64,000 bases of DNA from Candidatus Nomurabacteria bacterium (GCA_028286645.1 JAQBRF010000004.1:408942-472941); one strand, 5' to 3'; numbered from the stretch's first letter, positions 2,405-24,113 are shown. Translations and numbers: made by a program. The notes: generated by a model not told the origin, from the sequence alone.

Positions 2405-4402
<1,998 letters not shown>

Positions 4403-4442: not shown

Positions 4443-5177
4443 TTATTTGACTTCAGTCGTATTTATAATAGCGCGCTCTATAGGTAGAGTGGTTTCATTT
4501 CCGCATGAAGAAAATCCTCTAGCCACTATCTGTCTGTAGGTACTTGTTTTATATACTAAAACAGTCGCACATCTATATTGCCCGTTCCCTAAATCCATTT
4601 TCATAGAAAATGTTGATTTCTGTCCGCTTTCAAGATCTCCTTTTGAATTTGATCTGTTAAATGGCTCATAAGTGATCGAGGAATTGGCCCCGCTAAAAAT
4701 CGCAGAAGTTGCACATTTAATATCAGAAAGTGTAAGACTGGGTAAATTGCGAGCCTGTCTTTGATTATTAACTTTGTCTAAAACTGTTTGGGGTGTGGCT
4801 GTTGTGTTATATGGAAATATTCCTATTCCACTGTCCGGATCTGTATATTGATCATCAATCATAATGGCGCACATTAGAGCGCTATCTGCTGCATAATATG
4901 CTAATTGGCTTTCTCGAGAAAGTTTAGAGAAATATAGCTCCTTGGTAAGGATGATAGATATGCCAGTGGAAATAGTGAGGATGATAGTACAAACAAGAAG
5001 CGTCATAGGAAGTATGAACCCGCCCACCTTCTTATGTCCGCTGAAATTTATTAGACCAAAGGGAGATTTACTTTTTATGATAAAATCTGACAAAATAATA
5101 GAAGGTGGGCGGGTGAATCCTTTTGAAGCTTTATTTTTAATTTTATTAAATAAGTTTTTCATATTAGCTTCGGGCAT
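4443..5177 (-). CDS. pilin-like membrane protein (degenerate prepilin motif), start uncertain
   Basis: N-terminal MKNLFNKIKNKASKGFT resembles the leaders of the adjacent pseudopilins but lacks Glu+5. Followed by a TM helix. Last gene of the pilus operon. Confidence 0.35.
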   Translation of the reverse strand: MPEANMKNLFNKIKNKASKGFTRPPSIILSDFIIKSKSPFGLINFSGHKKVGGFILPMTLLVCTIILTISTGISIILTKELYFSKLSRESQLAYYAADSALMCAIMIDDQYTDPDSGIGIFPYNTTATPQTVLDKVNNQRQARNLPSLTLSDIKCATSAIFSGANSSITYEPFNRSNSKGDLESGQKSTFSMKMDLGNGQYRCATVLVYKTSTYRQIVARGFSSCGNETTLPIERAIINTTEVK

Positions 5178-5838
5178 GAAGAAAATCTACAACCTTAATC
5201 TGTTTGGTAAATCCGTTAGACCGCAAAAAGGTAATAGTGACCACTACTCGTAGATCGGTATTATATTCTGCATCAGCTCCCGCAAATGTAATCAGAGGTG
5301 TTATGGAAACCGATCGTGAAAAACTTGTCGGTGTCGCCCCCTCACCGTGAACACCTGTACAAACATACATTCCAATCGCATTAACAGACAGTGTAGAGCA
5401 CTGGGAACCATTGAAATCGTATTTTGACGGACTTACCTCTTCATTGCCCACCATATCTATGAAATCATAAGCACATACGCCAGGAGTTTGATTACTCAAG
5501 CAAGAAACTCCATAATTTGTCGATGAAAGACGTTCATTAAACATTCTCCATGCGGCCTCTCGAGGAAGCTCATTATTCCGTAGCACACAAGCATTTGTAT
5601 CTTGTGATAAACATTTTAAATATATTGAATCCTGCTGATGACGAAGCAGTTCCACAGCTTCTTGCGCTAAATATACGGAAATCATGGTATCTTTTGTTTG
5701 TTTGGCATAAGTAGCGGCATTTGTCGCCACAGTAAGAGGACCTAAAATGACTAATGTGACAAGGGTGGTCGAAACTATAGCCTCTATGATTGTAAAACCT
5801 TTTGCTCTTTTCTGTTGTAATTTATTAAATATGTTCAT
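5164..5838 (-). CDS. minor (pseudo)pilin with class III signal peptide
   Basis: KGFTIIEAIVS prepilin-peptidase motif (G|FTxxE) followed by a hydrophobic helix. 224 aa. Confidence 0.6.
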   Translation of the reverse strand: MNIFNKLQQKRAKGFTIIEAIVSTTLVTLVILGPLTVATNAATYAKQTKDTMISVYLAQEAVELLRHQQDSIYLKCLSQDTNACVLRNNELPREAAWRMFNERLSSTNYGVSCLSNQTPGVCAYDFIDMVGNEEVSPSKYDFNGSQCSTLSVNAIGMYVCTGVHGEGATPTSFSRSVSITPLITFAGADAEYNTDLRVVVTITFLRSNGFTKQIKVVDFLHARS

Positions 5839-5839
5839 A

Positions 5840-6514
5840 TTAATTATCTAATCCGCGAGAAGATATACTTGTCTCAACGTTGAAAGTAACCGGTCGCGCT
5901 CTGACATTATTTGGAAGCGTCTTTCCAGCCAATATAAGAGTGATGACTGGCTGATTAGTATCTGTTCCACCATTAGTACTAGAAAGGGCTCCTGAAACAT
6001 AAAAAGTAAGATTGCTTATAAATACGTCAGAAGATGTGATCTGATATCTTTTTTTGTTATTAACATTTGAATTTGCATATTCGTCTTTATAAATAACGCC
6101 ATTTTCCAGAGAGTATGTAATTCTATCTTGAGTCGGATCAGTAGTTCCGGCTAAAGGTTCCACCGGCTTAAGAACAAGAAAACTTGAGCCAACACTTTCC
6201 CTGTAAGAACAGTCATTTCGAGGAACAGGAGCCACGGTGGGCACACCACAATAAAATTGTGATCCATAACGAATATCTCGGGTCATACCTTCTACTACCA
6301 AATTTACTCCGTCTAATATAACTTGGCTTTGTTCAAGCCTTGCATTTATTGCTTGCGCGGAAAAAAGTGCACCTACAGCAATAGTTATTATAGAGATAAA
6401 AAGCGCCATACTTACTAAAAGCTCTACTAATGTAAAGCCCTTTACATTCCCGCTAAAAAAACCAGAAGACTTATCAAACTTATTTATAAATTTTTTAATT
6501 TCGTGGATGGTCAT
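5840..6514 (-). CDS. minor (pseudo)pilin with class III signal peptide
   Basis: KGFTLVELLVSMALFISIITIAVG N-terminus. 224 aa. Overlaps neighbours by 1-4 nt (operon). Confidence 0.6.
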   Translation of the reverse strand: MTIHEIKKFINKFDKSSGFFSGNVKGFTLVELLVSMALFISIITIAVGALFSAQAINARLEQSQVILDGVNLVVEGMTRDIRYGSQFYCGVPTVAPVPRNDCSYRESVGSSFLVLKPVEPLAGTTDPTQDRITYSLENGVIYKDEYANSNVNNKKRYQITSSDVFISNLTFYVSGALSSTNGGTDTNQPVITLILAGKTLPNNVRARPVTFNVETSISSRGLDN

Positions 6515-7197
6515 GATGAGCTATTGTCACACTTACCAATTTGAGTTCGAATCATTCCAGAATTAAATACTTGAACAGATCGTATATGCCCTGAACGAGG
6601 AGCGTACGGAGAGCGAAGCTCAATACATGCCGCCGAATAATTTACACCAGAATTGTTATTTATATAAATATGAGGCTCTGGATCTGGCCTGGTAAATGAT
6701 ATAGTAAGAGAATTAATAACAGGAGTATTGGCGCTGTTGCATGTGAAGGGAAAACCATTCCCTACACATAGTTTATATATAGTAAAACTTTTTGAAAGGG
6801 TGGTAATGCTTTTGGTTTCATCAATTGGATTGCCATTTTCATATAAGCCATTACCGATGGAAAGGCCGTAAGGTTTAGGAACATTAGAATCAATTACATC
6901 TTTAAATAAAATTAACTTATTTGGGGTTGAGAGTTGTATAAAAACTCCATATCCTCCGATGGGGCTTTCAGAATTAAGAGTAATATTCCCAGAATCAATT
7001 GCACTTCCCCTAATCTGAGCTTCGCGCACCAAAAGGGCGAGTGAGTGAGTATTATTAGCAAGCGTTATTCTAGTAGATGTTTCTGGATATCCTGACATTA
7101 AAATAGCCGTGAGAATTGCCATAATCGCGAGGCTTACAGAAAGCTCAACTAAGGTAAACCCCTTCATTTTCAAGCAAGCGGAAAAACGCAATTTCAT
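6511..7197 (-). CDS. minor (pseudo)pilin with class III signal peptide
   Basis: MKGFTLVELSVSLAIMAILTAI N-terminus. 228 aa. Confidence 0.6.
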   Translation of the reverse strand: MKLRFSACLKMKGFTLVELSVSLAIMAILTAILMSGYPETSTRITLANNTHSLALLVREAQIRGSAIDSGNITLNSESPIGGYGVFIQLSTPNKLILFKDVIDSNVPKPYGLSIGNGLYENGNPIDETKSITTLSKSFTIYKLCVGNGFPFTCNSANTPVINSLTISFTRPDPEPHIYINNNSGVNYSAACIELRSPYAPRSGHIRSVQVFNSGMIRTQIGKCDNSSS

Positions 7198-7212: not shown

Positions 7213-7992
7213 CTAAGATACGACTCTAGCGATGGAATAAACATCAATCTGTGTGAACAAAACAAATAAAAATGAAATAACTATATAAGGAACGAATGGA
7301 ATCGCGGTATTTTTATTACCCATCTGCTTTCTAAGTATGTATATACATATGCCAACTAGGGCTCCTAGCCATATAGATAAAAGTAGCACTGCGAGCCCCT
7401 GCTCTATCCCAAAAAAAGCTCCAACCCCTAAAAATAATATAACATCTCCAAACCCAAGAGCTTTACCTCTAGAAACTATCCAAATAATTAGGAAAGGCAG
7501 AGCTATTACAATGGGGCCTAAAAACACCTCATATCCTCCTCCATCATATTGATACCTCATAAAAAGCATAATTATAGTAAGGACACAATAAATGAGTAAG
7601 TACTGGATCGGAATATAACTATGAGCCTTATCGTAAAGAGCTATTACCCCGAGAGAAATAAATAGTAATGTATAGTATACAAGCCAAGAAATAGAAAAGA
7701 TGAGCGAAGCCTGATCCGCTAGAACATATATATATAGGCATAAGAACATTAACCCATAAAATACTTCTACTAAAAGAGCGGAAATTCCAAATGGAGTTTT
7801 ACAATGTCTGCATCTTCCTTTTAAAAGGATGTAAGACAGTACCGGGATTAAGTCTGATGCGCGAAGTGCCTCTCCGCATGAGAGGCACTTACTGCGAGCT
7901 TTTGTAATCTTTGCTACATGTAACCTAGTTACAACCACTTCAACAAAACTTCCTATTGCCGCACCGTAGATAAAAGATAGAATGTAAAACAC
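7213..7992 (-). CDS. pilD: prepilin peptidase (A24 family)
   Basis: 259 aa polytopic membrane protein. N-terminal CxxC...CxxC zinc motif (KCLSCGE...CRHCKTP) and conserved Asp-containing loops typical of PilD/TadV. Confidence 0.85.
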   Translation of the reverse strand: MFYILSFIYGAAIGSFVEVVVTRLHVAKITKARSKCLSCGEALRASDLIPVLSYILLKGRCRHCKTPFGISALLVEVFYGLMFLCLYIYVLADQASLIFSISWLVYYTLLFISLGVIALYDKAHSYIPIQYLLIYCVLTIIMLFMRYQYDGGGYEVFLGPIVIALPFLIIWIVSRGKALGFGDVILFLGVGAFFGIEQGLAVLLLSIWLGALVGICIYILRKQMGNKNTAIPFVPYIVISFLFVLFTQIDVYSIARVVS

Positions 7993-8005
7993 AAACCTCC
8001 AACTT

Positions 8006-8653
8006 CTAGTTAGTTAAATCGTAGATACAGGCTGTTGTTCCTGTTACGGCTGACGTACAAGCTGTAGTGCTCGTATCAATTCCACCTCCGAAATCTCCCG
8101 TGGCCCCAGTAGAAACAGGCTGTCCCGCTTCGTTAGCAAAATAATTCGTATGGCTTACGGTACATGCTGTTATACATGTATAAGGAATTGAACCTGTTGT
8201 TTGATCTACACAAGGCTTTGCAGTTCCGGTGAGCGCCGTAGTTACGCCTCCGCAGTCTGCGTCATCATTTAAACCCTGGTTTGATGACTCCAGCTTAACA
8301 CCTAAGTGATACCCGATTCGTCGATTGTTTGCACCTGGGTCTGTATAAACCGCATACATATACTTATCTCTAGCAGCAACAGTTGACGAAGCATTTGTAG
8401 GAAGAGCTTGTAGATATCTTGGGGCGAGACTAGAAAGATCAGGCGGGTAATCTCCGCCATTGTCTTCTGCATAAAGCTGTAAAGCGGTCGAAATAGCGCG
8501 AAGGTCTGCAACCTTCTTTGCATCTCTTCCTTTTCTTCTAGATTCTGTGATCGGTGCTGCTATAACCGTTGAAAGAAGGCCGATAATTGCGATCACCACC
8601 AGGAGTTCGATGAGGGTGAATCCTTTGAAACTTTTTTTTAATATTTTTGACAT
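8006..8653 (-). CDS. pilA: type IV major pilin (paralog 1)
   Basis: KGFTLIELLVVIAIIGLLS N-methylation motif. 215 aa. C-terminal Cys pair. Confidence 0.8.
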   Translation of the reverse strand: MSKILKKSFKGFTLIELLVVIAIIGLLSTVIAAPITESRRKGRDAKKVADLRAISTALQLYAEDNGGDYPPDLSSLAPRYLQALPTNASSTVAARDKYMYAVYTDPGANNRRIGYHLGVKLESSNQGLNDDADCGGVTTALTGTAKPCVDQTTGSIPYTCITACTVSHTNYFANEAGQPVSTGATGDFGGGIDTSTTACTSAVTGTTACIYDLTN

Positions 8654-8750
8654 AGTTAGTATTATAAATTTCTATCTTGATTAGACTGAGCTAATTATAA
8701 ACCCTCTAGGGTAAATCACAAGCTTAGATGTGGATATCTTAATAAGATAA

Positions 8751-9404
8751 CTAATTAGTTAAATCATATATACATGCCGCAGGAGTGCTTACAAGAACAG
8801 ATGTACAAGCCGTTGTGCCTGTATCTTGTCCTCCGCCAAAATCGCTATTTATACTTGAAGCAGGAGGATACCCGGCATCACCAACTACCCATGTTGGGTT
8901 ACTTGCAGTACAGGCGATTATACATGTATAAGGAATAGCTCCTGTAGTCTGGTTGACACAAGGTTTTGAACTTCCCCCCATAGCAAAATCGAAAGCCCCT
9001 CCACAGTCCGCATCATCGTTTAGCGCCTGATTCGCAGATTCTAATTTTACTCCTAAATGATAACCAATACGTCTATTATTTGCCCCAGGGTCAGCAAAGA
9101 CTGTATACATATATTTATCTCTAGCACTTGCTGAAGACCAAGCATTAGCAGGCAAAGATTGTAGATACCTAGGAACAAGAGATGAAATATCGGGCGGATA
9201 TTCTCCCGCATTATCATCGGCATACAATTGTATGGCTGTAGAGATTGAGCGTAGATCGGCGATTTTCTTTGCATCTCTTCCTTTTCTTCTAGACTCTGTA
9301 ATAGGAGCCGCTATAACAGTTGAAAGAAGTCCGATAATTGCGATCACCACCAGGAGTTCGATGAGGGTGAATCCTTTGAAACTTTTTTTGGAAATTTTAA
9401 ACAT
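8751..9404 (-). CDS. pilA: type IV major pilin (paralog 2)
   Basis: First ~125 aa nearly identical to 8006..8653. C-terminal ~90 aa divergent. 217 aa. Confidence 0.8.
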   Translation of the reverse strand: MFKISKKSFKGFTLIELLVVIAIIGLLSTVIAAPITESRRKGRDAKKIADLRSISTAIQLYADDNAGEYPPDISSLVPRYLQSLPANAWSSASARDKYMYTVFADPGANNRRIGYHLGVKLESANQALNDDADCGGAFDFAMGGSSKPCVNQTTGAIPYTCIIACTASNPTWVVGDAGYPPASSINSDFGGGQDTGTTACTSVLVSTPAACIYDLTN

Positions 9405-9442
9405 AAATTATTTATATAACAATATATCTTTAATAAAAACAA

Positions 9443-10660
9443 TTAGCTTATAGCTGACGATAACGAATACATAGGCAACAAAACAGCAGACACTAATACT
9501 CCAACTCCTAGACCTAAAGAAACTATCATGGCGGGCTCAATTAGACCTATAACTCTATCAATAGAAGTATCGAGCTCGCGCTTATAAAATATAGCTAAGT
9601 TATTTAAAATATAAGCCAATTCTCCTGTTTCTTCTCCAATATGCACCATCTGTACTAAAATATTTGGAGCAAGAGGCTCTTCATAAAGAGCCTTAGAAAA
9701 GGCAACACCAGTCTGGACTTTTTGAGAAACTCTTTTTAAGAGATCTTTATATATAACATTCTCTACTACCGCCGAAGTAATATCAATTGATCTAACGATA
9801 GGCACCCCGCTTGTTAGCATCGTATTCATGTTATCCGCAAGCCGTGTTAAGAAAATACGCTGATACAAAGTCTTGATAACCGGAATTCTGGTTTTAATTT
9901 CGTCTATTTTCCTAGTTCCTCTTTCTGTTTTTGACCATTTATAAAATATCCATATCGCAATAACTATTATTGGAAATGATATAGCCCAGTATTTTACAAA
10001 TACATCTGAAATCCCTAATATTATTTTAGTAACCAGTGGGAGATCTGCCCCTTGATCGGCAAATAGGGCCGCCATTTTAGGAATAACAAAAGTAAGCATG
10101 CCCACCATAATTACCACGAAAGTTCCGATAACGAAGCTTGGATAAGTGAGAGCTTTTTTTATTTTCTGAGTAAGCTCATAATCTCTATCGAGATAATCTG
10201 CTAAATATAAAAATCTTTCATTTAATTTTCCGCTCTCTTCTCCGGCTTTTACCATGTTTATATAAAATGGCGAGAATATTCCAGGTCGACGCGAAAGAGA
10301 TTCAGACAATGAAACACCAGCTTCTATATCATCTGCCACACTGGTTAACTCTTTTTGAAGCGCGATATTTTCATTTTCCTGGGCGAGCAATCTAAAACCC
10401 TTAAGCGCTGGAACCCCTGCTTGAAAAAGCGTAGCAATCTGGCGAGAAAATATAACTAAATCCTTTGGCTTAACTTTTGGCTTTAAAAAATGGAAGTTTG
10501 TTATAGCATCTAATCCCTTGCTTTCTTTTTTCTCTACAATATTTACAATGGCTAAACCTCTTTTTTGTAGTAGTGCAATAGCCTGGTCTAATGAGCCGCT
10601 TTCAACATCGGCTTCGATCTTAACCCCATCGTTTCCAATTGATGTATAGTGAAAAAGCAT
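9443..10660 (-). CDS. pilC: type IV pilus inner-membrane platform protein (GspF/PilC family)
   Basis: 405 aa, duplicated T2SSF domain, three TM segments, typical PilC spacing. Confidence 0.85.
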   Translation of the reverse strand: MLFHYTSIGNDGVKIEADVESGSLDQAIALLQKRGLAIVNIVEKKESKGLDAITNFHFLKPKVKPKDLVIFSRQIATLFQAGVPALKGFRLLAQENENIALQKELTSVADDIEAGVSLSESLSRRPGIFSPFYINMVKAGEESGKLNERFLYLADYLDRDYELTQKIKKALTYPSFVIGTFVVIMVGMLTFVIPKMAALFADQGADLPLVTKIILGISDVFVKYWAISFPIIVIAIWIFYKWSKTERGTRKIDEIKTRIPVIKTLYQRIFLTRLADNMNTMLTSGVPIVRSIDITSAVVENVIYKDLLKRVSQKVQTGVAFSKALYEEPLAPNILVQMVHIGEETGELAYILNNLAIFYKRELDTSIDRVIGLIEPAMIVSLGLGVGVLVSAVLLPMYSLSSAIS

Positions 10661-11718
10661 TATAGTAATCGATCAAATAATGATGGCCGTCTGATATGGC
10701 CTTGTACATCATCCTTATTAACTTCTCCCTTTCTTATTAGTTCAGCCAAATTTCGATCAAGATCAATCATGCCATCCTTTGAGCCAGTCTCTATAAGAAC
10801 ATCAATTTCATGCGTTCTCTTTTCTCTAATAAGATTTGATACGGCAGAAGTGTTTAATAAAAGCTCAAACACTGGGATAAGACCACCAGAAATTCTAGGA
10901 ATTAATCTTTGAGAAAGCACTCCAATGAGTGATGAAGCCAGCTGTAATCTGATTTGTGACTGCTGTTCTGCCGGGAAAATATCAATAATTCTATCTATTG
11001 TTTGCGCGGCTGAGTTTGTGTGGAGGGTAGATAAAACCAGATGCCCCGTTTCTGCCGCAGTAACTGCTGCAGAAATAGTTTCCAAATCACGCATTTCACC
11101 GATCATGATAACATCCGCATCTTGTCTAAATACATGACCAAGAGCGGTATGGAAATCTTTTGTATCCACTCCGACCTCTCTTTGTTCAATTAGAGCTTTA
11201 TTTGGATCAAATCTAAACTCAATCGGATCTTCGATGGTGATGATATGCCTTTTCGCTTCTGAGTTAATCAAGTCCACCATGGAAGCAATTGTAGTAGACT
11301 TTCCTTGTCCCACGGGACCTACTACCAAGAAAAATCCCTGGCGCTCTCTGGCGATTTGAATTAATTGTTCAGGAAGATTAAGCTCAGCTATTGTTTTAAC
11401 TTTTGGAATAAGTCTTAGAGCAACAGAAATAAACCCTCTTTGAAATGATGCGTTTCCTCTTAATCGATATTCTTTCTTATGTTCATATGAGAAATCAAGT
11501 TCCTGATTTACCACGAAATCAGTAAGAGCTTTTTCTCCCACCATAATGCGTAAAAATCCTAAAGTATCTTCCGCGCTTAATTCTTTTTTTCGAGTTAAAG
11601 GAATGAGTTCGCGATTTACTCGAACAGTCGGGAAAGTACCAACAGTAAAATGAATATCAGACCCAGCTTCTTTAACCAGAGTCATTATTAAATCATCGAG
11701 CTCGTTTTCGTAATTCAT
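10660..11718 (-). CDS. pilT: twitching-motility/retraction ATPase (PilT family)
   Basis: 352 aa. Walker A GPVGQGKSTT, Asp box, His box. Size typical of PilT/PilU, not PilB. Preceded by the heptad leader motif. Confidence 0.85.
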   Translation of the reverse strand: MNYENELDDLIMTLVKEAGSDIHFTVGTFPTVRVNRELIPLTRKKELSAEDTLGFLRIMVGEKALTDFVVNQELDFSYEHKKEYRLRGNASFQRGFISVALRLIPKVKTIAELNLPEQLIQIARERQGFFLVVGPVGQGKSTTIASMVDLINSEAKRHIITIEDPIEFRFDPNKALIEQREVGVDTKDFHTALGHVFRQDADVIMIGEMRDLETISAAVTAAETGHLVLSTLHTNSAAQTIDRIIDIFPAEQQSQIRLQLASSLIGVLSQRLIPRISGGLIPVFELLLNTSAVSNLIREKRTHEIDVLIETGSKDGMIDLDRNLAELIRKGEVNKDDVQGHIRRPSLFDRLL

Positions 11719-11937
11719 AGGGATAGATAGTAGACGTTAGACATTAGATGTTAGAAAATACAAATTCTATGCATGATGCTAGTATAAACCGGAAATGTGT
11801 AAAGACAATTGAATAAGTCACAGAAACGAGATGCTAAGGACTAGGCGTTAGGTTTTAGGTGTTAAAATACTAAAGTTACAAATGCAATATATAAATACTT
11901 AGAATTTTCCGTTTCAATAAATTTAATAACTAAACAA

Positions 11938-11975
11938 AAACCCCGTTTCATCACCGGGGGGTGACGAAACGGGTT
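11938..11975 (-). terminator. rho-independent terminator of the GC-rich gene
   Basis: 16-bp perfect stem AACCCGTTTCGTCACC/GGTGATGAAACGGGGTT followed by a T-run on the minus strand. Confidence 0.6.
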
Positions 11976-11980
11976 GTAAA

Positions 11981-12514
11981 TCACCCGGGAGCAGAACACT
12001 CCGGGAATTTCGAGAAGATCTCCTTCTGAAGACCTGTGAGGTAAACGACACGAAACCAGAAAGGAGGAAAAATGCCGTGGCAGTTATGTTTTATGGCCTC
12101 CACGTTAGCTGACCATTCGTCGACCCTGCGGCTCTTTCTCATAAGTTCGGCGACTTCTTCCTCGCTCATGCCGTAGCGCTCGTGTTCTTCCTTTGCGCAC
12201 GCCTCCTGGAGGAGCCGATACCCTTCACGGATGAAAAGCTCCATGTGATTATGGTAGACACTTCCAGGACGAACGTCCCGAGGTTGGCCTTCGAGGTATT
12301 GCGCAGTACTCGGTGACCCTTCGCAGCTCTTTTCCCCCTCAATGTCATACCACGGCAGAAGATGCCGGGCTGACGCAGTAAAGCAGGTGGCATTGCCGGC
12401 ATAGAGCCCGACGTACGCAGCGTTGTTGCGATCCGGGACCGGAGTACGGCATTTGTCGCAGAGCGGCTTTCCTTTGTCGTTGTATTCGGTAATTACTGTA
12501 AAGACAAGCATGAC
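11981..12514 (-). CDS. hypothetical protein on a GC-rich islet (likely horizontally acquired)
   Basis: ORF with GGAGA RBS before the internal Met (MLVFTVITEY...). GC clearly above flanks. Own strong terminator. No recognisable domain. Confidence 0.5.
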   Translation of the reverse strand, partial: VMLVFTVITEYNDKGKPLCDKCRTPVPDRNNAAYVGLYAGNATCFTASARHLLPWYDIEGEKSCEGSPSTAQYLEGQPRDVRPGSVYHNHMELFIREGYRLLQEACAKEEHERYGMSEEEVAELMRKSRRVDEWSANVEAIKHNCHGIFPPFWFRVVYLTGLQKEIFSKFPECSAPG

Positions 12515-12828
12515 GGTCTCCTTCAAATTTAGTGTGCGTTTCCGCACCCTAAAGAAGAAAATCACCATTTAAGACTGGGTGCGGTTCTGATTGATCCAAG
12601 AAAGTTGTTAGCTGTGCTTCATGATTCCCCCCACATAAAAATGAGCAGATAAATACAGTATAACATATTTGCCCGATATTGTCAATATTGAAAATCCCCT
12701 ATTTATTATGGCCATATTTCGGAATTGGTTAGAAAATAAGATGAGTACAATGCAAAGGAATTTTTTGAGACTAAAACGTACATACGTTGCGTGAGCAAAA
12801 GATTCTCTTAACGGAATAATCGCTTATA

Positions 12829-12944
12829 TTAAAGACTTAAATTTGCTACAGATACGCGAAGCCTAGGAATCTTTTTGAAGAAGTGTACAAAGAAGTACAT
12901 TGATGAAAAAAATTCTGTAGCGACAAAGTAGATGGAGTAAATTT
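12829..12944. mobile_element. MITE-like element: ~116 bp bounded by 15-22 bp terminal inverted repeats (copy 1)
   Basis: ATTAAAGACTTAAATTTGCTACAG ... CTGTAGC ... AAATTTAAGTCTTTAA. Internal TGTAC-N6-GTACA palindrome. Core ~70% identical to 47626..47680. Confidence 0.4.
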
Positions 12945-12950
12945 AAGTCT

Positions 12951-14699
12951 TTAAAGTTCGTTAATTTCGACAAAGGGAATCAGGCCGTTTATAGACTTGA
13001 TAATCGCATCCTCCTTCATGGTCATCATTCCATTCGCACGTGCTAGATGCCAGATTTCTTCCTCTCCCTTGCTGTGAAGCACAGCATCCTGAATAGGAGG
13101 AGTAAATGTCAGCACTTCAAATACAGGCACTCTTCCTTTCATTCCTGTTGGAAACTTTTCAGATGTTTTTACTTCATTTAACGGTTTATCAAGCGGAAGC
13201 TTGGATTTAAATTGCTCCGGCAGATCTTTAAACTGCTCTGCAATCATTTCTTTCATTCCATCATTTATTTCCATCGGCTTTGCACAACCTTCTGCGATGC
13301 CTCTCGAAAGTCTCTGCCCAATAGTTGCGATAATCGTTGGAGCTATCAAGTATGGCTCAATACCCATGTCTAACAGTCTTGTAATCACCCCTACGGCAGT
13401 GTTGGTGTGAATAGTAGAAAACACCAAGTGTCCCGTAAGCGCGGCTTGTATGGCCAGCTGCGCGGTTTCTGCGTCGCGTATTTCTCCTACCATGATTACA
13501 TCGGGGTCCTGGCGAAGAATAGATCGGAGACCAGAAGCAAATGTATATCCAATTTCTGGAAATATTTGCGATTGGTTCATGCTTGGAACGTTGTATTCTA
13601 TCGGATCTTCAAGAGAAACCACATTTCGGTGTTCTCGGTCAATCTCATTTAACATGGCATAAAGAGTGGTGGTTTTACCAGATCCAGTAGGTCCGCAGAT
13701 TAGTATTATTCCATAAGGCCTTGCTAGAGCATTTCGAATTTCTTTCATTTGTCCATCAGAGAAACCAAGAGTATCAACTGGACGCACTCCTTTATAGCTG
13801 TCCAATATACGTATCACCACCTTTTCCCCATAATATCCAGGGAATGTAGACACACGGTAGTCAATAGTGTGGTCTCCGAACTTTGTACTGAATCTTCCAT
13901 CTTGAGGCTTTCTCTTTTCGTCGAGCTTCATTCCGCAAAGAATCTTTACGCGCGCGAGCAGCATGGGATGCATTTTAACGGGAAGAGTGGTTATAGTTTC
14001 TAGCTGCCCATCAAGTCTGACTCTGGCCCGCACCCCTGTTCCGATATGTTCAATATGAATATCAGATGCTCCGTTATCAATAGCATAACGTAAAATAATA
14101 CTAAATATTTCCGGAATAGAAAGCTTAGCAAGATCGCTATCCAGCCCTGCACTTGTTACCGCCGTTAAATCAATATCTTCTCCAGTAGTCTCTTTCCCTT
14201 TTTCTCCATCGTCTTTAGATATATACGAAAGTACTTCATCTCCCACCTTATCTGTAAGACTGGTCTTTTCAAGTGGGGCGTCAGAGTTTATTCCAAAGTG
14301 CTTTTTATATGCGTCATATGTAATTAAAAATACTTTGTATGCAATATGATCCTTGCCGAAAAGGAATTGAAGACTGTCTAGAACATTTGCATGCTCTGGA
14401 TCTACCACTCCTACAGTTACCACTCCATCTTTTTCAGATAAAGGAACAGAGAGCAACTGCTTAGATTGTTGAACGCTTATATATTTTGTTAATTCTTTGT
14501 CATCTGATATATCACCTTTAAATATAGGCAGCCCGTAAAGAATGCTTCTTACCTCCGTGATTTCCTCTGTTGTAATGTTTTTCTTAACTAAAATAGAATC
14601 AACCAAGATATCATCGCGCACTGAAATATCAGACTCAATGTCTTTAGCTTCAAGCTCGGTTAATTTATTTTGACTAACGAAGAGGTCTAGAAGAAGCAT
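12951..14699 (-). CDS. pilB: type IV pilus assembly ATPase (GspE/PilB family)
   Basis: 582 aa. N-terminal T2SSE_N domain, Walker A GPTGSGKTTT, tetracysteine-less CPR-style C-terminus. Confidence 0.9.
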   Translation of the reverse strand: MLLLDLFVSQNKLTELEAKDIESDISVRDDILVDSILVKKNITTEEITEVRSILYGLPIFKGDISDDKELTKYISVQQSKQLLSVPLSEKDGVVTVGVVDPEHANVLDSLQFLFGKDHIAYKVFLITYDAYKKHFGINSDAPLEKTSLTDKVGDEVLSYISKDDGEKGKETTGEDIDLTAVTSAGLDSDLAKLSIPEIFSIILRYAIDNGASDIHIEHIGTGVRARVRLDGQLETITTLPVKMHPMLLARVKILCGMKLDEKRKPQDGRFSTKFGDHTIDYRVSTFPGYYGEKVVIRILDSYKGVRPVDTLGFSDGQMKEIRNALARPYGIILICGPTGSGKTTTLYAMLNEIDREHRNVVSLEDPIEYNVPSMNQSQIFPEIGYTFASGLRSILRQDPDVIMVGEIRDAETAQLAIQAALTGHLVFSTIHTNTAVGVITRLLDMGIEPYLIAPTIIATIGQRLSRGIAEGCAKPMEINDGMKEMIAEQFKDLPEQFKSKLPLDKPLNEVKTSEKFPTGMKGRVPVFEVLTFTPPIQDAVLHSKGEEEIWHLARANGMMTMKEDAIIKSINGLIPFVEINEL

Positions 14700-15012
14700 A
14701 TGGTACGAAAGGATCTAATCTGCCGCGGGAAGCGGTCTCCCCTATAATTTCTGTATGATCTACAAGCGACTTTACTAATGTTGAATTCATAAAAGAAACA
14801 TCTTTAAAGGAAATCTTATCTTGAGTCTTGGATTTTAAGAAAAGAGTAATGTTTTGGCCTAACAGTGACTCATTGGCAGCTACAGTCGTCGTAGTCGCGG
14901 AATTTTCAGAAAACATTCCATATATGTAATAGCCTACGATAATGACAATAACCACTCCTACTATTTCTAATATAAGAGATTTTTTTTGGACTAAAATTGA
15001 TGGAATTTGCAT
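14674..15012 (-). CDS. small single-pass membrane protein (pilus-cluster associated)
   Basis: 112 aa with one TM. Overlaps the pilB start by 26 nt. Confidence 0.35.
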   Translation of the reverse strand: MQIPSILVQKKSLILEIVGVVIVIIVGYYIYGMFSENSATTTTVAANESLLGQNITLFLKSKTQDKISFKDVSFMNSTLVKSLVDHTEIIGETASRGRLDPFVPYASSRPLR

Positions 15013-15013
15013 A

Positions 15014-15562
15014 TTATTTCAAATAGTAAGTGCTTAACTTAACTTGATAGTTTGTAGAAGTTCCGGGCTCCGTAGACACACTAAATGAGGTCGATTCAAT
15101 ATTATACAGCCTCATACTCTTTTCATAACTATCTAGCAGCTGCTTAAACTTAGTATAGGTGGTTTTTGTTGAAAAACTAACTGTATATGATCCTCGACCT
15201 CCTACTGCCGGGTTCTCTGAGTATGATAAATCTGAGATTGGAACACCTGTCGTGTTTGCGATATTATCTACTTCACTTAAGAGTCTAACTGGATCAATCT
15301 TAGCAGGAACCATCGTTTCTATTTTCTTCTTTGTGTCAGCATCAATGTTATTGTATTGTTTCTTCAAAGTTTCTGCTTCATTATAAAGCTCATTTACTTG
15401 CGCCACAGTTTTCGTATACTCCTCATTCGAAGTCTTAAGGGCGGTAATTGATTGTTCTGGCTGCCAAACAGTTCCCCCGCCTGAATATAATGGACTTATA
15501 ACCACGTAATAAAGAGCGAATGATCCTACTATGAGCAAAGTGTTTAATAATCTGGGTGACAT
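15014..15562 (-). CDS. PilO-like pilus assembly membrane protein
   Basis: 182 aa, N-terminal TM then coiled-coil. Position between PilN-like and pilB. Confidence 0.45.
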   Translation of the reverse strand: MSPRLLNTLLIVGSFALYYVVISPLYSGGGTVWQPEQSITALKTSNEEYTKTVAQVNELYNEAETLKKQYNNIDADTKKKIETMVPAKIDPVRLLSEVDNIANTTGVPISDLSYSENPAVGGRGSYTVSFSTKTTYTKFKQLLDSYEKSMRLYNIESTSFSVSTEPGTSTNYQVKLSTYYLK

Positions 15563-15566
15563 ATAG

Positions 15567-16337
15567 TTATGGTCTTAATTTAGGAAGGGTTCCTGTTGCT
15601 GTGGGATTTATCATCTTTGTGCTCGACGCTTGAGGGATAATTAACGAAGCGCTGCTTGTGGCAGTGGTGGTCGATACATTAAGCGGCTCCACAGGAGGAG
15701 CAACTCCTAGAACTAATTCTTCTGGCAATACTCCGGAAATTGCTATATTCATTTTTAAATCAAAACCCACTTTTCCAGTATCATCGGGATGCAGACCCGC
15801 GATCGCGAGGTCAGATATATAGCTGCTGTAGGGTTTATTTTTAAGAGTCTCCATTTGTTGAACGATAGTTTTATAATCTGGGGCGGTTGCAGTTAAAGCA
15901 AGCAAATATGTTTTCTTGGCGTCATCATATCTTAAATCAAATCTAGAATAGGTCACTGGATTTTCCACGCTTTCTTCAAGAAGCCTAAAAGCGGCATTTT
16001 CAGATGGGTGATTTTTAACTAAAACATTTATATATTTTATTCTATTTGAGAGTGCTCTCATATCTTCAAGTGGAAGACCTCCAAGTTTAGCCTCATAATC
16101 ATTTATTAATTGCTGCTTAGATGTTATTTGTGACCCTAAATACCAGTGATACCCAAATAATGCAATGGCAGCGAGTATGAAAATGCCAAATATTCCATAA
16201 AGTATTTTTTGGAAAAAACCTACCCCTTCTGGAAGTCGCGAAGAAAAGCTAAGCGAAGATAAAGAAGAGCTTGACGCTCCCGAAACATCGGAAGACGTGC
16301 TTTGATTTGCTTGTGATGGTTTAAATGAAAACGGCAT
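15567..16337 (-). CDS. PilN-like pilus assembly membrane protein
   Basis: 256 aa, Ser-rich N-terminus, single TM, periplasmic domain. Immediately downstream of pilM. Confidence 0.4.
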   Translation of the reverse strand: MPFSFKPSQANQSTSSDVSGASSSSLSSLSFSSRLPEGVGFFQKILYGIFGIFILAAIALFGYHWYLGSQITSKQQLINDYEAKLGGLPLEDMRALSNRIKYINVLVKNHPSENAAFRLLEESVENPVTYSRFDLRYDDAKKTYLLALTATAPDYKTIVQQMETLKNKPYSSYISDLAIAGLHPDDTGKVGFDLKMNIAISGVLPEELVLGVAPPVEPLNVSTTTATSSASLIIPQASSTKMINPTATGTLPKLRP

Positions 16338-16338
16338 T

Positions 16339-17412
16339 TTAGATTTGAGGAACTAACTTCTTTAGAGCACACCCGACTGCAAGAGAGTATGTCGGACCCA
16401 CTCTTTCTATCATCTCGTGTAAAAACGCGGGCACTTCTATTTGATCAAATGGAGATGCGAGCCTGCCCGCGATATGAACAGTAGAATTATATGCATCCAT
16501 TAATCCTTTTGTACGCGCTCCTCCGCCGGATAAAATTATTCCTTCAATGTTCTGATTATACTTTCTTTCATACATAAGAGATAGTCTTGCGATCTCTCCA
16601 AAAAGTGGATAACTACTTAATTCCATAATTTCTTTTATATATGGATTTGATTTATCGCCAACATATCCGAATTCCCTCTTCGTGCTTTCTGCTGTATCGA
16701 TTGGGATGGATAATGCTTTAGAAAGTTGTATAGTCGCATCTTGAGATCCCTTGCTTATAACATGCATGTCTAAAACAGTATTTTCATGAGTCAATGAAAG
16801 GGTGGTGTACTGAGAACCAATATCAGCATATAAAATCATTCCGCGGTTTTGTGTTGGCGCGCTGCGCAAAAGACTATAACCATGAACTTCATATTCTACA
16901 TTTGTAAGCTCAAGCTTATGCACAATTCTGTCATACATAGCCAGTGTCTCATTATTCACCGCCGCCAATACGATATTTATCATTCTTTCGTCTTTGCCGA
17001 TGTTTAACATGCTTGGGATATGCCACCAATCCATTTGCACCTCAGTTAAAGGTACGGGAATATATTTTCTGGCCTCAAGAGGTATCATGGTTCTAAGCTC
17101 CCTGTCATCTACTTTTGGGACTTTTACAAGAGCCACATATCCGGCAGACGGGTCTATCGCCACTACCGTATCCCTTGCTGTTATTTTGGCTTCTTTAAAT
17201 AAATCGCCTATTGCCTCGATGGTCTTTTCTTCTCCTAGATGAACCGCTTGACCTGACTCTTTCCCAGCATATGGGCCAAGCTCAATCTCTCCATATGTAT
17301 CTAAAATTATTTTCTCTTTTTCACGCCGAAGCTGAACAACTTTTATCGAAGAAGTTCCAATGTCTAGACCAATAGCCTGACCAATTTCCTCTTTCTTAAA
17401 GAAATGAAACAT
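16339..17412 (-). CDS. pilM: type IV pilus assembly ATPase-fold protein PilM (actin-like)
   Basis: 357 aa. IGLDIGTSSIKVVQL N-terminal phosphate-1 motif of the actin/HSP70 fold typical of PilM/FtsA. Confidence 0.7.
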   Translation of the reverse strand: MFHFFKKEEIGQAIGLDIGTSSIKVVQLRREKEKIILDTYGEIELGPYAGKESGQAVHLGEEKTIEAIGDLFKEAKITARDTVVAIDPSAGYVALVKVPKVDDRELRTMIPLEARKYIPVPLTEVQMDWWHIPSMLNIGKDERMINIVLAAVNNETLAMYDRIVHKLELTNVEYEVHGYSLLRSAPTQNRGMILYADIGSQYTTLSLTHENTVLDMHVISKGSQDATIQLSKALSIPIDTAESTKREFGYVGDKSNPYIKEIMELSSYPLFGEIARLSLMYERKYNQNIEGIILSGGGARTKGLMDAYNSTVHIAGRLASPFDQIEVPAFLHEMIERVGPTYSLAVGCALKKLVPQI

Positions 17413-21671: not shown

Positions 21672-22094
21672 CTAGCCAAGCCAGCCAGCGTAAGTGAGAA
21701 ACGTGGTCTCGCGTTTGTGGAAGTCGTATTGCAATGTTTCGGGGTGATCTCCTGGGCTCGTGATCATGATGATACCAATCGCATCCCGTTTAATCGCGGA
21801 GAACACATGCGTTTGTGTTGCAGGATCTCTGGTCACCACAAGCGTACTCCGATAAATCTCGCGCGTGCGTTTGTAGCTGCCCACATTTTCGATCTCGCTC
21901 ACGGTGACATTGTACGTCCCGGGAGCCTTGAAGTGCACTGTGTAGGCGGCGGCTTTTTCATCCCAGCCGTCTTTCGAAGGCTGCACGATGACCCGGCCTC
22001 CGAACATTGGAATATCCCTGGTCTTGTCTCCGTAGACTTGTGTGAAGTAAAAAGCCCCTACTGCCAGTATAAATAATGCAAAAAGCCATCTCAT
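21672..22094 (-). CDS. secreted hypothetical protein (GC-rich islet)
   Basis: 140 aa, signal peptide MRWLFALFILAVGAF, AAGGAAAGGGA RBS. Confidence 0.5.
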   Translation of the reverse strand: MRWLFALFILAVGAFYFTQVYGDKTRDIPMFGGRVIVQPSKDGWDEKAAAYTVHFKAPGTYNVTVSEIENVGSYKRTREIYRSTLVVTRDPATQTHVFSAIKRDAIGIIMITSPGDHPETLQYDFHKRETTFLTYAGWLG

Positions 22095-22197
22095 ATTCCC
22101 TTTCCTTTTCTTTTAAATTAATCAAAGGCGCAAGCGCCGACAGGTTGTATACAATCAAATATATTAGATCATGTTTGTCAATATAAGAAAATTACAA

Positions 22198-22635
22198 CTA
22201 AACACTTTTCTGAATAATCGAAAATATGTTTTTATTTATAAAATTCTCTGGTATTTCATTTGATTTAAACCATTTCCACTCACCGAATTTCTCCGGCTCC
22301 ATGAGCTTTGCTTCTTGATTTGTAGAACATACAAAAACTTCTACAATATCTCCCTCCTTTGCTCCATCTACCTTTCCAATATATTCTTCAATTTTAAGAT
22401 CTGTGATTCCGGTCTCTTCTTCTGTTTCTCTTTTTAAGCATTCTTCTACAGTTTCTCCTTCATCGCCCCTTCCTCCTGGAGTTGTCCAAAATGATCCTAT
22501 CCATTTGTCTGGTGTGTAGTTGCGCAATCCTAATAATATTTTCCCATCACGAATTATAAGCGCCGAAGTTGCTGTCTCGCGGGTTACTTGTGTTTTTAAA
22601 ATTTGGTCCATGTGAAAAAAGTATATCAGTTTCAT
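22198..22635 (-). CDS. NUDIX hydrolase
   Basis: Nudix box GGRGDEGETVEECLKRETEEETGI. AT-rich native composition. TAG stop. Confidence 0.8.
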   Translation of the reverse strand: MKLIYFFHMDQILKTQVTRETATSALIIRDGKILLGLRNYTPDKWIGSFWTTPGGRGDEGETVEECLKRETEEETGITDLKIEEYIGKVDGAKEGDIVEVFVCSTNQEAKLMEPEKFGEWKWFKSNEIPENFINKNIFSIIQKSV

Positions 22636-22682
22636 TTTACAAAAAGAAAAGCTCCGACCGAAGCCGGAGGTTGTCGTCTGTA

Positions 22683-23375
22683 CTAACGTGGGCGACGGGT
22701 GCGCGTACCGAGGAAGCTGGATGCGATGAGGACATCGACTATTCCGCGGTCAGAACCGCCGAGCGAACTTGCGAAGATCGACGCCATCAATGCATCCACA
22801 CCTCCGCTGCCAGAGGACTGTTTCGAACAGGCTACACCATAGGCGCAGATGAGCTCGACGATGAGGCGCATTTGAGGCCCCTCGAGTTTCACCCCTTCCA
22901 GCGCCAAACCGACAGCGAGCTGCATGTTCTGCATACGCACTTCCGGCTCCGGTGGGTACATGGCGCCCGCAAGCAGCGCCTCGAGTTGGGCGATTTTTTT
23001 GTTGTTGCGTTGTGCGCCGAGAGTCTTCCAGTCCGCCAACTGGAAGGGAGCATCGGAGGGCTGCGGTAAGCTTTGATACCACCCGAGCTCTTCGACACCC
23101 GCGGCGACCATCACGGTGCTGTCGGGCCGAATGTGGTCATGAGGACGGCCGTCTTGATCGATGAAGTAAGGCGCTTCCCACGTGTAGGGGCTGCACACAT
23201 CCTTCGCGAGGTAGATCCTCGAAGCTCTGAAGGAGAGATCGAAGGCTCCGTTTTCATGTTTCTTGAGGACCAACACTTTCGTGTCGGCGCATTCGTCGCA
23301 GCCGAAGCCCGTGATCACATCTCCCGGACGCAGGGTCGAGCTGCTCATGGCTTCGCCAACCTTTTTCGTGTGCAT
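22683..23375 (-). CDS. hypothetical protein (GC-rich islet)
   Basis: 230 aa, AAAGGAA RBS, downstream hairpin+T-run terminator at ~22646-22680. No recognisable domain. Confidence 0.5.
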   Translation of the reverse strand: MHTKKVGEAMSSSTLRPGDVITGFGCDECADTKVLVLKKHENGAFDLSFRASRIYLAKDVCSPYTWEAPYFIDQDGRPHDHIRPDSTVMVAAGVEELGWYQSLPQPSDAPFQLADWKTLGAQRNNKKIAQLEALLAGAMYPPEPEVRMQNMQLAVGLALEGVKLEGPQMRLIVELICAYGVACSKQSSGSGGVDALMASIFASSLGGSDRGIVDVLIASSFLGTRTRRPR

Positions 23376-23529
23376 CGCATTCCTTTCTATAGTGTTTGTG
23401 TTGAAATGAGCGCTTCTACTTATTTAAGTAAACAGTACTTCACCACCCTAACAATAAAATCATAATTTGTCAATGAGAGTATAAAAAGAAAAGCCCGTCT
23501 TGCGACGGGTGTGTTTGAAACGGGGGTGA

Positions 23530-23976
23530 TTACTCCCACCATTTCCAGAATGGGAAGAGAGCGCCGATACCGAAGCTCCCGAAACGAATGCCCCCGCCAC
23601 CGGCCAGGCAACCGAATCCGCCGAGGCAAGCGCCGACCGTTACGAAGAGAAATCCGATGTCGAGGTTCGGCCCGATGTAAAAGGCCACTCTCTTGTACCA
23701 GGCCTTACCTGCCGCTTTCTCGGCGGCCAGAGCAAGCTCCGGAAGTAAAAGGGGGAGAATGCGCATTGCACGGATTGCCTTCGGGATATTCCGGAAAGGA
23801 ACCTGAATCATTCGCCTTTCGTCGAGGATTCCTCCGACACTATCCGCGATGCTCGCCAGAACATCTCCACCTCCCCCGCCGCCATCACCCGTGGAAATAT
23901 CGTCTGAGATACCGCTGCCTTCTCCCAGGATTCCTCCAAGGTCGATCACGATCCCTAATGCCACGCCGAAATGCAT
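23530..23976 (-). CDS. glycine-rich protein with GxxxG-rich hydrophobic C-terminus
   Basis: GGGAGGG RBS before MHFGVALG. poly-Gly stretch. C-terminal FLFVTVGACLGGFGCLAGGGGIRFGSFGIGALFPFWKWWE. Confidence 0.45.
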   Translation of the reverse strand: MHFGVALGIVIDLGGILGEGSGISDDISTGDGGGGGGDVLASIADSVGGILDERRMIQVPFRNIPKAIRAMRILPLLLPELALAAEKAAGKAWYKRVAFYIGPNLDIGFLFVTVGACLGGFGCLAGGGGIRFGSFGIGALFPFWKWWE

Positions 23977-24066
23977 AATGTGCCCTCCCAAAATTCCAAC
24001 TGTTACAGAAGCAACCGAAGTTGACTAGTTATAAACTATAATACCATTAATGTTCTGTCAATTACA

Positions 24067-24113
24067 CCTAAACACTGCTTCTATATTATTCCATCTGGGT
24101 CTAGAACGAATAC
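24067..24113 (-). repeat. degenerate copy C of the VOC-gene 3' end (att-like direct repeat)
   Basis: ~45/48 identical to 25845..25893 with one 1-nt deletion. Similarity extends ~15 bp past the former stop codon. Confidence 0.6.

What the first reader, a model, noticed from the sequence alone, without database searches (positions are those of the whole stretch)
8006..9404. Tandem major-pilin paralogs with conserved N-terminal half and divergent C-terminal domain
- The two pilA genes share an almost identical first ~125 residues (leader, N-methylated helix, start of the globular domain).
- Their last ~90 residues differ completely, including the Cys-containing D-region.
- Architecture like this allows antigenic or receptor-specificity switching by recombination between copies, or differential expression. 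Neisseria pilE/pilS is a known parallel for the recombination mechanism.
- In an organism that may depend on pili for host attachment or DNA uptake this matters.
Basis: seen in the sequence. Interest (0 to 1): 0.5.

Follow-up and report, generated by a model that had tools for sequence, protein, structure and literature searches.

The report
Duplicated pilin genes, partly homogenised
Two complete, adjacent genes for the main pilus subunit sit in the pilus operon of a tiny uncultured (CPR) bacterium; they are ordinary diverged duplicates with a short gene-converted 5' stretch, not a Neisseria-style switching system.

Summary
The two ORFs are real. They lie on the minus strand at 8751-9404 (217 aa) and 8006-8653 (215 aa), between pilC and pilD in a complete type IV pilus operon of a Candidatus Nomurabacteria MAG.

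The description is only partly right:
- Overall identity is 74%.
- Residues 6-47 are 100% identical, 48-136 about 79%, and 137-end 57%.
- The C-terminal parts align with two 1-residue indels and keep all six Cys and the terminal motif. They do not "differ completely".

There is an amino-acid step after residue 136, but it mirrors the conservation profile of 44 homologues. Synonymous divergence is saturated and uniform from codon 48 to the end. The only nucleotide-level breakpoint is after codon ~46, and the 5' tract (94% nt identity) is best explained by gene conversion.

Relatives have one pilin (5 loci) or a tandem pair (3 loci). Each pair has a long nt-identical tract at a different position.

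No silent partial copies and no G4 motif were found, so a pilE/pilS mechanism is not supported. The closest analogue is Streptococcus sanguinis PilE1/PilE2. This is a modest finding: a new member of a known kind.

The parts
8751..9404 (-). Upstream pilin gene (217 aa; NCBI MDB5260613.1, named 'gspG'). The leader is MFKISKKSFKG, with cleavage before FTLIE.
   Evidence: ORF. Pfam N_methyl and TIGR02532. Exact match to P0001.
8006..8653 (-). Downstream pilin gene (215 aa; NCBI MDB5260612.1). It is 74% identical to the upstream copy.
9264..9389 (-). Codons 6-47 of the upstream copy. They encode the end of the leader plus the alpha1 helix. This is the near-identical tract (94% nt, 59-nt perfect run), interpreted as a gene-conversion tract.
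   Evidence: pS is 0.26 here against 0.7-1.0 in the rest of the gene. Between genomes, pS for the same segment is 0.42-0.94. Codon-shuffle P = 0/5000.
8513..8638 (-). Codons 6-47 of the downstream copy, the partner of the conversion tract.
8754..8996 (-). Codons 137-217 of the upstream copy. This is the most variable region, rich in Cys and in Gly/Ala/Ser/Thr, and lies C-terminal to the DCGG motif.
   Evidence: 57% aa identity to its partner, dN 0.34, dN/dS about 0.17. Family conservation there is 0.48-0.63. GAST fraction is 0.47, with 5 Cys.
8009..8245 (-). Codons 137-215 of the downstream copy, the matching variable region.
8654..8750 (-). 97-nt spacer between the two pilins. It carries the full promoter-like module conserved upstream of this pilin in other genomes: TATCCACA 8729-8736, -35 TTGTGA 8716-8721, -10 TATAAT 8694-8699 and AAGATAGAA 8670-8678. 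No terminator is present.
   Evidence: 10/12 match to the sigma-70 consensus. The module aligns with six other loci. The fold is no better than shuffled sequence (z -0.21).
9405..9442 (-). 38-nt spacer between pilC and the upstream pilin. It keeps only remnants of the module (TATAAG and AAGATATA 9423-9430). The -35 and TATCCACA elements are absent.
9443..10660 (-). PilC-type platform protein (T2SSF), immediately upstream of the pilins.
   Evidence: Pfam T2SSF, E 6e-60.
7213..7992 (-). Prepilin peptidase PilD (A24), 13 nt downstream of the second pilin.
   Evidence: Pfam A24_N_bact and Peptidase_A24.
10660..17412 (-). The rest of the pilus machinery: PilT-like ATPase 10660-11718, PilB 12951-14699, PilO 15014-15562 and PilM 16339-17412, plus unnamed ORFs. 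No secretin was seen.
5164..7197 (-). Three minor-pilin-like ORFs with an N-terminal methylation motif (6511-7197, 5840-6514, 5164-5838).
   Evidence: Pfam N_methyl hits: 28.6 and 21.6 bits, above the 21.2-bit cut-off, for 6511-7197 and 5840-6514; 18.6 bits, below it, for 5164-5838.

Best explanation
These are two functional paralogs of the major-type pilin of a monoderm-style type IV pilus operon (pilM-N-O-B-T-C, pilin, pilin, pilD, minor pilins) in a Candidatus Nomurabacteria (Parcubacteria/CPR) genome.

Shown:
- Relatives carry either one pilin or a tandem pair at this slot, so duplication is recurrent.
- Both window copies are intact and under purifying selection.
- Their divergence follows the family's normal constraint gradient: invariant alpha1 helix, then conserved head, then a variable Cys-rich C-terminal third.
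- Synonymous sites are saturated from codon 48 onward, so the duplication is old.
- Codons 6-47 are far more alike than that age allows.

Inferred:
- The 5' tract was homogenised by ectopic gene conversion between the tandem copies. The same process left longer or differently placed identical tracts in three related genomes.
- The mature N-terminal 36 residues are identical. Both proteins should therefore be cleaved by the same PilD and polymerised by the same machine, most likely into mixed filaments whose surface is a mosaic of two C-terminal domains, as in Streptococcus sanguinis PilE1/PilE2.
- The downstream copy is transcribed from its own conserved promoter together with pilD. The upstream copy depends mainly on read-through from pilC.
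For: - ORFs and motifs.
- Operon context.
- The same operon in relatives carries a single pilin and a tandem pair.
- Both copies keep all 53 family-invariant columns.
- dN/dS is about 0.1 overall and 0.17 in the C-terminal third.
- Paralog identity by segment is 0.96/0.74/0.86/0.53/0.61. Family conservation by the same segments is 0.93/0.73/0.72/0.48/0.63. The per-column correlation is r = 0.37, p = 2e-8.
- The synonymous breakpoint falls after residue 46 (p < 0.0005), with none after that.
- The alpha1 segment has pS 0.26 between the window paralogs. It is 0.42-0.94 between genomes and 0.72 in the L088 pair.
- Longest identical runs are 59 nt (window), 404 nt (L001), 193 nt (L087) and 110 nt (L088), each P = 0/5000 by codon shuffling.
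- N-part and C-part trees disagree in L001. The tandem partner ranks 1st in the N part but only 6th and 22nd in the C part.
- Promoter module.
- S. sanguinis precedent: PMC4832360 and PMC10628169.
Against: - There is no expression or protein evidence for either gene, so 'major pilin' rests on position and conservation only.
- Co-assembly is by analogy alone.
- The 5' tract encodes the most conserved peptide of the family. Some of its nucleotide identity could reflect constraint rather than conversion, although cross-genome synonymous divergence argues against this.
- dS is saturated, so dN/dS values are rough.
- Only 64 kb of a 514-kb contig was examined for further copies.
Confidence: 0.55

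Rival explanations
1. Alternative pili by differential expression. The two genes are expressed under different conditions: the downstream copy from its own promoter, the upstream copy only with the machinery operon. This would give homopolymeric pili with different host-binding or phage-receptor surfaces.
For: - The promoter asymmetry. The full conserved module (TATCCACA, -35, -10, AAGATAGAA) lies upstream of the downstream copy only, and the upstream copy is 38 nt from pilC with remnants of the module.
- Regulatory layouts differ among the related pairs. L087 has a hairpin plus T-run between the copies, and L001 has a 22-nt spacer.
Against: - No terminator or stable structure lies between the window copies, so read-through would express both.
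- The promoter calls are consensus matches only.
- The identical alpha1 helix would allow mixing whenever both proteins are present.
Confidence: 0.25
2. One copy is not a structural major pilin. Instead it is a specialised low-abundance or modulatory pilin, comparable to Pseudomonas stutzeri PilAII, which lies downstream of pilAI and antagonises transformation. That comparison is recalled from my own knowledge of Graupner and Wackernagel 2001 and was not checked here.
For: - Tandem position with unequal promoter context.
- 43% of residues in the C-terminal third differ.
Against: - Both copies keep every family-invariant residue and the same length.
- Five related genomes manage with a single copy of this same protein type at the same slot.
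- Separate minor pilins are encoded downstream.
Confidence: 0.12
3. A pilE/pilS-like antigenic variation system. One copy acts as an expression locus and the other as a donor cassette, with non-reciprocal transfer of the variable C-terminal region.
For: - Gene conversion between tandem pilin copies clearly occurs in this family.
- P0003 from a related organism is mosaic relative to the two window copies. Informative sites are U24/D13 in codons 48-100 and U7/D20 in codons 101-136.
Against: - Both copies are complete and translatable.
- There are no partial copies in the window and no G4 motif.
- Synonymous saturation across codons 48-217 means there has been no recent transfer of the variable part.
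- The converted tract in the window is the constant part.
Confidence: 0.05
4. An assembly artefact, in which two strain alleles of a single pilin gene were laid down in tandem.
For: This is a MAG contig, and each protein has been seen on one contig only.
Against: - The copies are separated by a 97-nt spacer carrying a promoter module homologous to that of other genomes.
- The unique flanks are pilC and pilD.
- Synonymous sites are saturated, which is far beyond strain-level divergence.
- Tandem pairs recur in three independent assemblies.
Confidence: 0.03

Closest known systems
Streptococcus sanguinis PilE1/PilE2 (two major pilins of a monoderm type IV pilus)
   Same: - Two full-length pilin genes lie in the pil locus of a secretin-less system.
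- The N-terminal alpha1 sequence is identical, and the differences are concentrated on the exposed head.
- In S. sanguinis both proteins are present in comparable amounts, either one suffices for piliation, and they polymerise stochastically into one filament (PMC4832360, PMC10628169).
   Different: - The proteins are not homologous beyond the N-terminal helix. The PDB profile hit to PilE1 (8pfb_G) covers residues 13-83 only, E 4.6e-6.
- The window pilins are larger (about 205 aa mature) and have a Cys-rich C-terminal third.
- No experimental data exist for the window organism.
Neisseria pilE/pilS antigenic variation
   Same: - A pilin with a constant N-terminal part and a variable C-terminal part.
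- Non-reciprocal recombination occurs between copies.
   Different: - In Neisseria the donors are promoterless, 5'-truncated silent cassettes, and a G4 element upstream of pilE is needed. That is established knowledge, not tested here.
- In the window both genes are complete, no cassettes were found and no G4 was found.
- The recently converted tract is the constant region, not the variable one.
Saccharibacteria (TM7x) type IV pili, PilA1 and PilA2
   Same: - CPR episymbionts with type IV pili.
- Major pilins are implicated in host binding, competition and motility (PMC11623550).
   Different: - PilA1 and PilA2 belong to two separate pilus systems at different loci.
- The window has two paralogs inside one operon.
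- The C-terminal part of the window pilin matches only 14 cluster representatives (clusters at 50% identity) out of 1.84 billion.
GspG, the major pseudopilin of type II secretion (the name given in the NCBI record)
   Same: - The N-terminal 100 residues resemble the GspG profile (TIGR01710 positions 1-97).
   Different: - The score of 44-51 bits is far below the 88.85-bit cut-off.
- There is no Pfam T2SSG domain.
- The operon has a PilT-like second T2SSE ATPase (352 aa) and PilM/PilO and no secretin, so this is a pilus, not a T2SS.

Membership tests
Type IV pilin (class III signal peptide proteins) | A short basic leader ending in Gly, then a Phe/Met +1 residue, with Glu at +5 (the G|FxxxE methylation motif). 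| tested here: met
   Both copies read ...KKSFKG|FTLIELLVV. Pfam N_methyl scores 33.5 bits against a 21.2 cut-off, and TIGR02532 scores 30.7 against 16.3.
Type IV pilin (class III signal peptide proteins) | A long N-terminal alpha1 helix followed by a globular beta-sheet head (the 'lollipop' shape). | tested here: met
   AlphaFold2 model with mean pLDDT 82.7: helix 14-64, strands 99-105, 111-121 and 211-216. The Foldseek best hit is the N. gonorrhoeae pilin 5vxx_A, but it is weak (E 0.08).
Type IV pilin (class III signal peptide proteins) | Encoded together with a prepilin peptidase, an assembly ATPase and a platform protein. | tested here: met
   PilC lies immediately upstream and PilD immediately downstream. 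PilB, PilT, PilM and PilO are in the same strand run.
Type IV pilin (class III signal peptide proteins) | It is the major, filament-forming subunit. | not testable with these tools
   This is inferred only from the gene's position after pilC, its conservation, and the separate minor-pilin genes. No expression or proteomic data are available.
GspG (T2SS major pseudopilin) | Score above the TIGR01710 equivalog cut-off, or a Pfam T2SSG domain. | tested here: not met
   Scores are 44.1 and 50.7 bits against a cut-off of 88.85. Only N_methyl is found in Pfam.
Neisseria-type pilE/pilS antigenic variation | Silent, promoterless, 5'-truncated pilin cassettes acting as donors. | tested here: not met
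   Both copies are complete ORFs. tblastn and blastn with the full proteins and with residues 48-end find no other copy in the 64-kb window. The rest of the 514-kb contig could not be searched.
Neisseria-type pilE/pilS antigenic variation | A G-quadruplex-forming motif near the expression locus. | tested here: not met
   A regex for four G3+ runs found none on either strand of the whole window.
Neisseria-type pilE/pilS antigenic variation | Recent transfer of variable-region sequence between copies. | tested here: not met
   pS is 0.70-0.84 across codons 48-217, with no breakpoint in the synonymous series (p = 0.36).
Two-major-pilin heteropolymeric T4P (S. sanguinis type; a functional class, not a sequence family) | Two full-length pilin genes in one pil locus with an identical alpha1 N-terminus. 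| tested here: met
   Residues 6-47 are 100% identical. Both genes lie between pilC and pilD.
Two-major-pilin heteropolymeric T4P (S. sanguinis type; a functional class, not a sequence family) | Both proteins are present in the same filament in comparable amounts, and either one suffices for piliation. | not testable with these tools
   This needs pilus purification or genetics in an uncultured organism.

The most novel reading that the evidence does not exclude
In Parcubacteria, the pilin slot between pilC and pilD may be a recurrently duplicating, recombining module. Gene conversion would keep the assembly-competent N-terminal part uniform. The C-terminal domain, starting at the conserved DCGG motif, would be kept divergent or swapped in from other lineages, re-targeting host attachment or escaping pilus-specific phages. 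The evidence for a swap is L001, where P0008's C-terminal part is closer to 21 other family members than to its tandem partner, even though the two share 404 identical 5' nucleotides. On this reading the window pair would be an older, decayed instance of that process.
Probability: 0.15. Interest if true: 0.5.

Novelty: new member of a known kind. Interest (0 to 1): 0.25.

Why it matters
CPR bacteria are thought to rely on type IV pili to find and hold their hosts. The exposed part of the major pilin is therefore a likely determinant of host range and of phage susceptibility. Two co-assembling pilins with different surfaces would be a cheap way for a 0.5-Mb genome to diversify that surface. The comparative pattern, with 1 or 2 copies per genome and conversion tracts at varying positions, gives a concrete handle on how this locus evolves. 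The phenomenon itself, tandem pilin paralogs with partial concerted evolution, is well precedented and would not surprise a pilus specialist.

Tried and rejected
- **Genome-contig scan with the full-length alignment.** The patterns chosen were the universal GFTLIELLV and RKKGRD motifs.
- **Metagenome-contig scan with a C-terminal-only alignment.** It returned only 2 weak loci.
- **Foldseek of the AF2 model against the PDB.** There were no significant hits; the best was the gonococcal pilin at E 0.08. The PDB sequence profile matches only the N-terminal helix.
- **Rfam.** Nothing in 7.8-9.7 kb.
- **Terminator or structure between the genes.** None was found.
- **Inverted repeats that could indicate a Moraxella Piv-type invertible pilin segment.** None were relevant, and the genes are in direct orientation.
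- **G4 motif.** None.
- **Slipped-strand phase variation at the A8/A7 runs in the leader codons.** I judged this unlikely. The runs are short, are simply Lys-Lys codons in an AT-rich genome, and are not conserved in relatives.
- **Positive selection on the C-terminal third.** dN/dS is about 0.17, so there is no sign of it, but dS is saturated.

Full report
**What is there**

The window's minus strand carries two complete ORFs at exactly the reported coordinates: 8751-9404 (217 aa, "up") and 8006-8653 (215 aa, "dn"). Both begin with an 11-residue basic leader ending in Gly, followed by FTLIELLVV. This is the prepilin cleavage and methylation motif (Pfam N_methyl 33.5 bits against a cut-off of 21.2; TIGR02532 30.7 against 16.3).

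The two genes sit inside a full, secretin-less type IV pilus operon:
- PilM 16339-17412
- PilO 15014-15562
- PilB 12951-14699
- PilT-like ATPase 10660-11718
- PilC 9443-10660
- the two pilins
- PilD 7213-7992
- three minor-pilin-like ORFs, 5164-7197
- then ligA, gatC and gatA

The proteins are exact matches to MDB5260613.1 and MDB5260612.1 of a Candidatus Nomurabacteria MAG on a 514,133-bp contig. The lineage is Parcubacteria group / Patescibacteria. NCBI names both proteins "gspG". That name fails its own test: TIGR01710 scores 44-51 bits against a cut-off of 88.85.

**Checking the observation**

The proteins are 74% identical overall. Identity by segment:

| Residues | aa identity | nt identity |
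|---|---|---|
| 6-47 | 100% | 94% |
| 48-100 | 74% | 71% |
| 101-136 | 86% | 70% |
| 137-180 | 53% | 62% |
| 181-217 | 61% | 62% |

So "almost identical first ~125 residues" overstates the case (84%). "Differ completely" is wrong. The C-terminal thirds align with two 1-residue indels, keep all six cysteines, and share KPCV.QTTG.IPYTCI.ACT, DFGGG.DT.TTACTS and ACIYDLTN.

A step in amino-acid divergence does exist. The max-chi-square breakpoint falls after residue 136, just past the DCGG motif (p = 0.0015).

That step is not a recombination signature. Among codons whose amino acid is conserved, the fraction that differ is uniformly high from codon 48 to the end. The Nei-Gojobori pS there is 0.70-0.84, which is saturated, and there is no breakpoint (p = 0.36).

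The step also reproduces the conservation profile of 44 other family members almost number for number. Family conservation is 0.93/0.73/0.72/0.48/0.63 and paralog identity is 0.96/0.74/0.86/0.53/0.61 (r = 0.37, p = 2e-8). The gradient is therefore the family's ordinary constraint profile.

**The real nucleotide-level boundary**

The synonymous series has one strong breakpoint, after residue 46 (permutation p < 0.0005). Codons 6-47 have pS 0.26 and contain a 59-nt perfect run (P = 0/5000 by codon shuffling).

Coding constraint does not explain this:
- The same 39 codons have pS 0.42-0.94 (median about 0.72) between genomes.
- They have pS 0.72 between the two tandem copies of another genome, L088.

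I therefore read the 5' tract (9264-9389 and 8513-8638) as a gene-conversion tract laid over an old duplication.

**Relatives**

The same operon in other Parcubacteria carries a single pilin between pilC and pilD in five cases: P0012, P0026/L003, P0023, P0027/L090 and P0044/L091. It carries a tandem pair in three cases: L001, L087 and L088.

Every pair contains a long nt-identical tract, but at a different place:

| Locus | Position of identical tract | Length |
|---|---|---|
| L001 | from -12 to codon 135 | 404 nt |
| L087 | codons 1-65 | 193 nt |
| L088 | codons ~115-151, the middle of the gene | 110 nt |

After its tract, the L001 pair drops to 49% aa identity.

There, the N part's nearest relative is the tandem partner. 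In the C part the partner ranks only 6th and 22nd among family members. That is a clear mosaic.

In the window the partner ranks 1st in residues 48-136 and 2nd in the C part, behind P0003. P0003 is itself mosaic relative to up and dn.

Ectopic conversion between tandem pilin copies is thus recurrent in this family. The window pair is a comparatively old and decayed example.

**Expression signals**

A promoter-like module is conserved upstream of this pilin in six other loci. Its form is TATCCACA ... CTTG[TC]G ... N16-17 ... TATACTTAA ... AAAGATAGAA ... ATG.

In the window the complete module lies in the 97-nt spacer upstream of the downstream copy:
- TATCCACA 8729-8736
- TTGTGA 8716-8721
- TATAAT 8694-8699, a 10/12 match to the sigma-70 consensus
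- AAGATAGAA 8670-8678

The upstream copy is only 38 nt from the pilC stop. It retains only -10-like and leader remnants. No terminator or stable hairpin separates the genes. pilD starts 13 nt after the second pilin.

From this I infer the following. The downstream copy has its own promoter and is co-transcribed with pilD. The upstream copy relies on read-through from pilC. None of this is shown.

**Mechanism**

Shown:
- There are two intact paralogs under purifying selection. dN/dS is about 0.1 overall and about 0.17 in the C-terminal third.
- All 53 family-invariant columns are kept in both copies.
- The first 36 mature residues are identical.

Inferred:
- Both proteins are substrates of the same PilD and the same assembly machine, and can co-polymerise.
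- The resulting filament surface would be a mosaic of two C-terminal domains, as demonstrated for S. sanguinis PilE1/PilE2 (PMC4832360, PMC10628169).

Alternatives are condition-dependent use of one or the other copy, or specialisation of one copy.

The AlphaFold2 model has mean pLDDT 82.7. It shows helix 14-64, strands 99-105, 111-121 and 211-216, and a loop-rich 126-210 segment. It is a pilin-like lollipop. The variable third is the least regular part, and I presume it is exposed.

**Against the pilE/pilS reading**
- Both genes are complete.
- No partial or silent copy exists in 64 kb.
- No third close paralog from the 514-kb contig appears among the best 120 database hits.
- There is no G4 motif.
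- There is no recent exchange in the variable region.

**Novelty**

The C-terminal two-thirds define a small, lineage-restricted family. Only 14 cluster representatives (clusters at 50% identity) out of 1.84 billion match at E <= 1e-3.

The phenomenon itself is well known: tandem major-pilin paralogs with an identical helix, a divergent head and partial concerted evolution. This is a new member of a known kind, of modest interest. The more interesting lead is comparative: the recurrent duplication and the DCGG-anchored mosaic seen in L001.

Noticed in passing
window 8670-8736 (minus strand); also L001 7262-7336, L002 ~1728-1815, L003 ~7918-8000, L088 ~4690-4762, L089 ~36-125: A promoter-like module is conserved upstream of the pilin gene across several Parcubacteria genomes. 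It includes an upstream TATCCACA box and a non-Shine-Dalgarno AAAGATAGAA element about 10-25 nt before the ATG. The roles of these two flanking elements are unknown.
   Followed up: partly
L087 ~3860-3920; L089 1-25: Heptanucleotide tandem repeats lie immediately upstream of the pilin promoter module in two relatives: TGGCTAT x8 in L087, and CTGTTAG x3+ at the contig end in L089. They could be slipped-strand phase-variation tracts. The window has none.
   Followed up: no
L001 7325-8642 (GCA_964461165.1, CAYWTC010000010.1): This tandem pilin pair has 404 identical nucleotides, plus 12 more upstream. Identity then drops abruptly to about 58% nt and 49% aa exactly after the DCGG codons. The downstream copy's C-terminal part is closer to 21 other family members than to its neighbour.
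   Followed up: partly
window 8632-8639 and 9383-9389 (minus strand): There are A8 and A7 homopolymer runs in the leader-peptide Lys codons of the two pilins. They are not conserved in relatives and are probably incidental.
   Followed up: partly
window 11981-12568 and 4443-5177 (minus strand): Two ORFs inside the pilus operon have no Pfam or NCBIfam match. One (195 aa) lies between pilB and pilT. The other (244 aa) follows the minor pilins, and relatives have an ORF of similar size at that position.
   Followed up: no
window 22001-30000: GC content rises to 0.47-0.49 at 22-26 kb and 28-30 kb, with a dip to 0.31 at 26-28 kb, against a background of about 0.38. Rfam found no rRNA there.
   Followed up: no
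window 58831-59163 (minus strand); 31642, 34932, 52653, 53374: There is a bacterial RNase P class A RNA (126.5 bits) and four tRNA genes.
   Followed up: no
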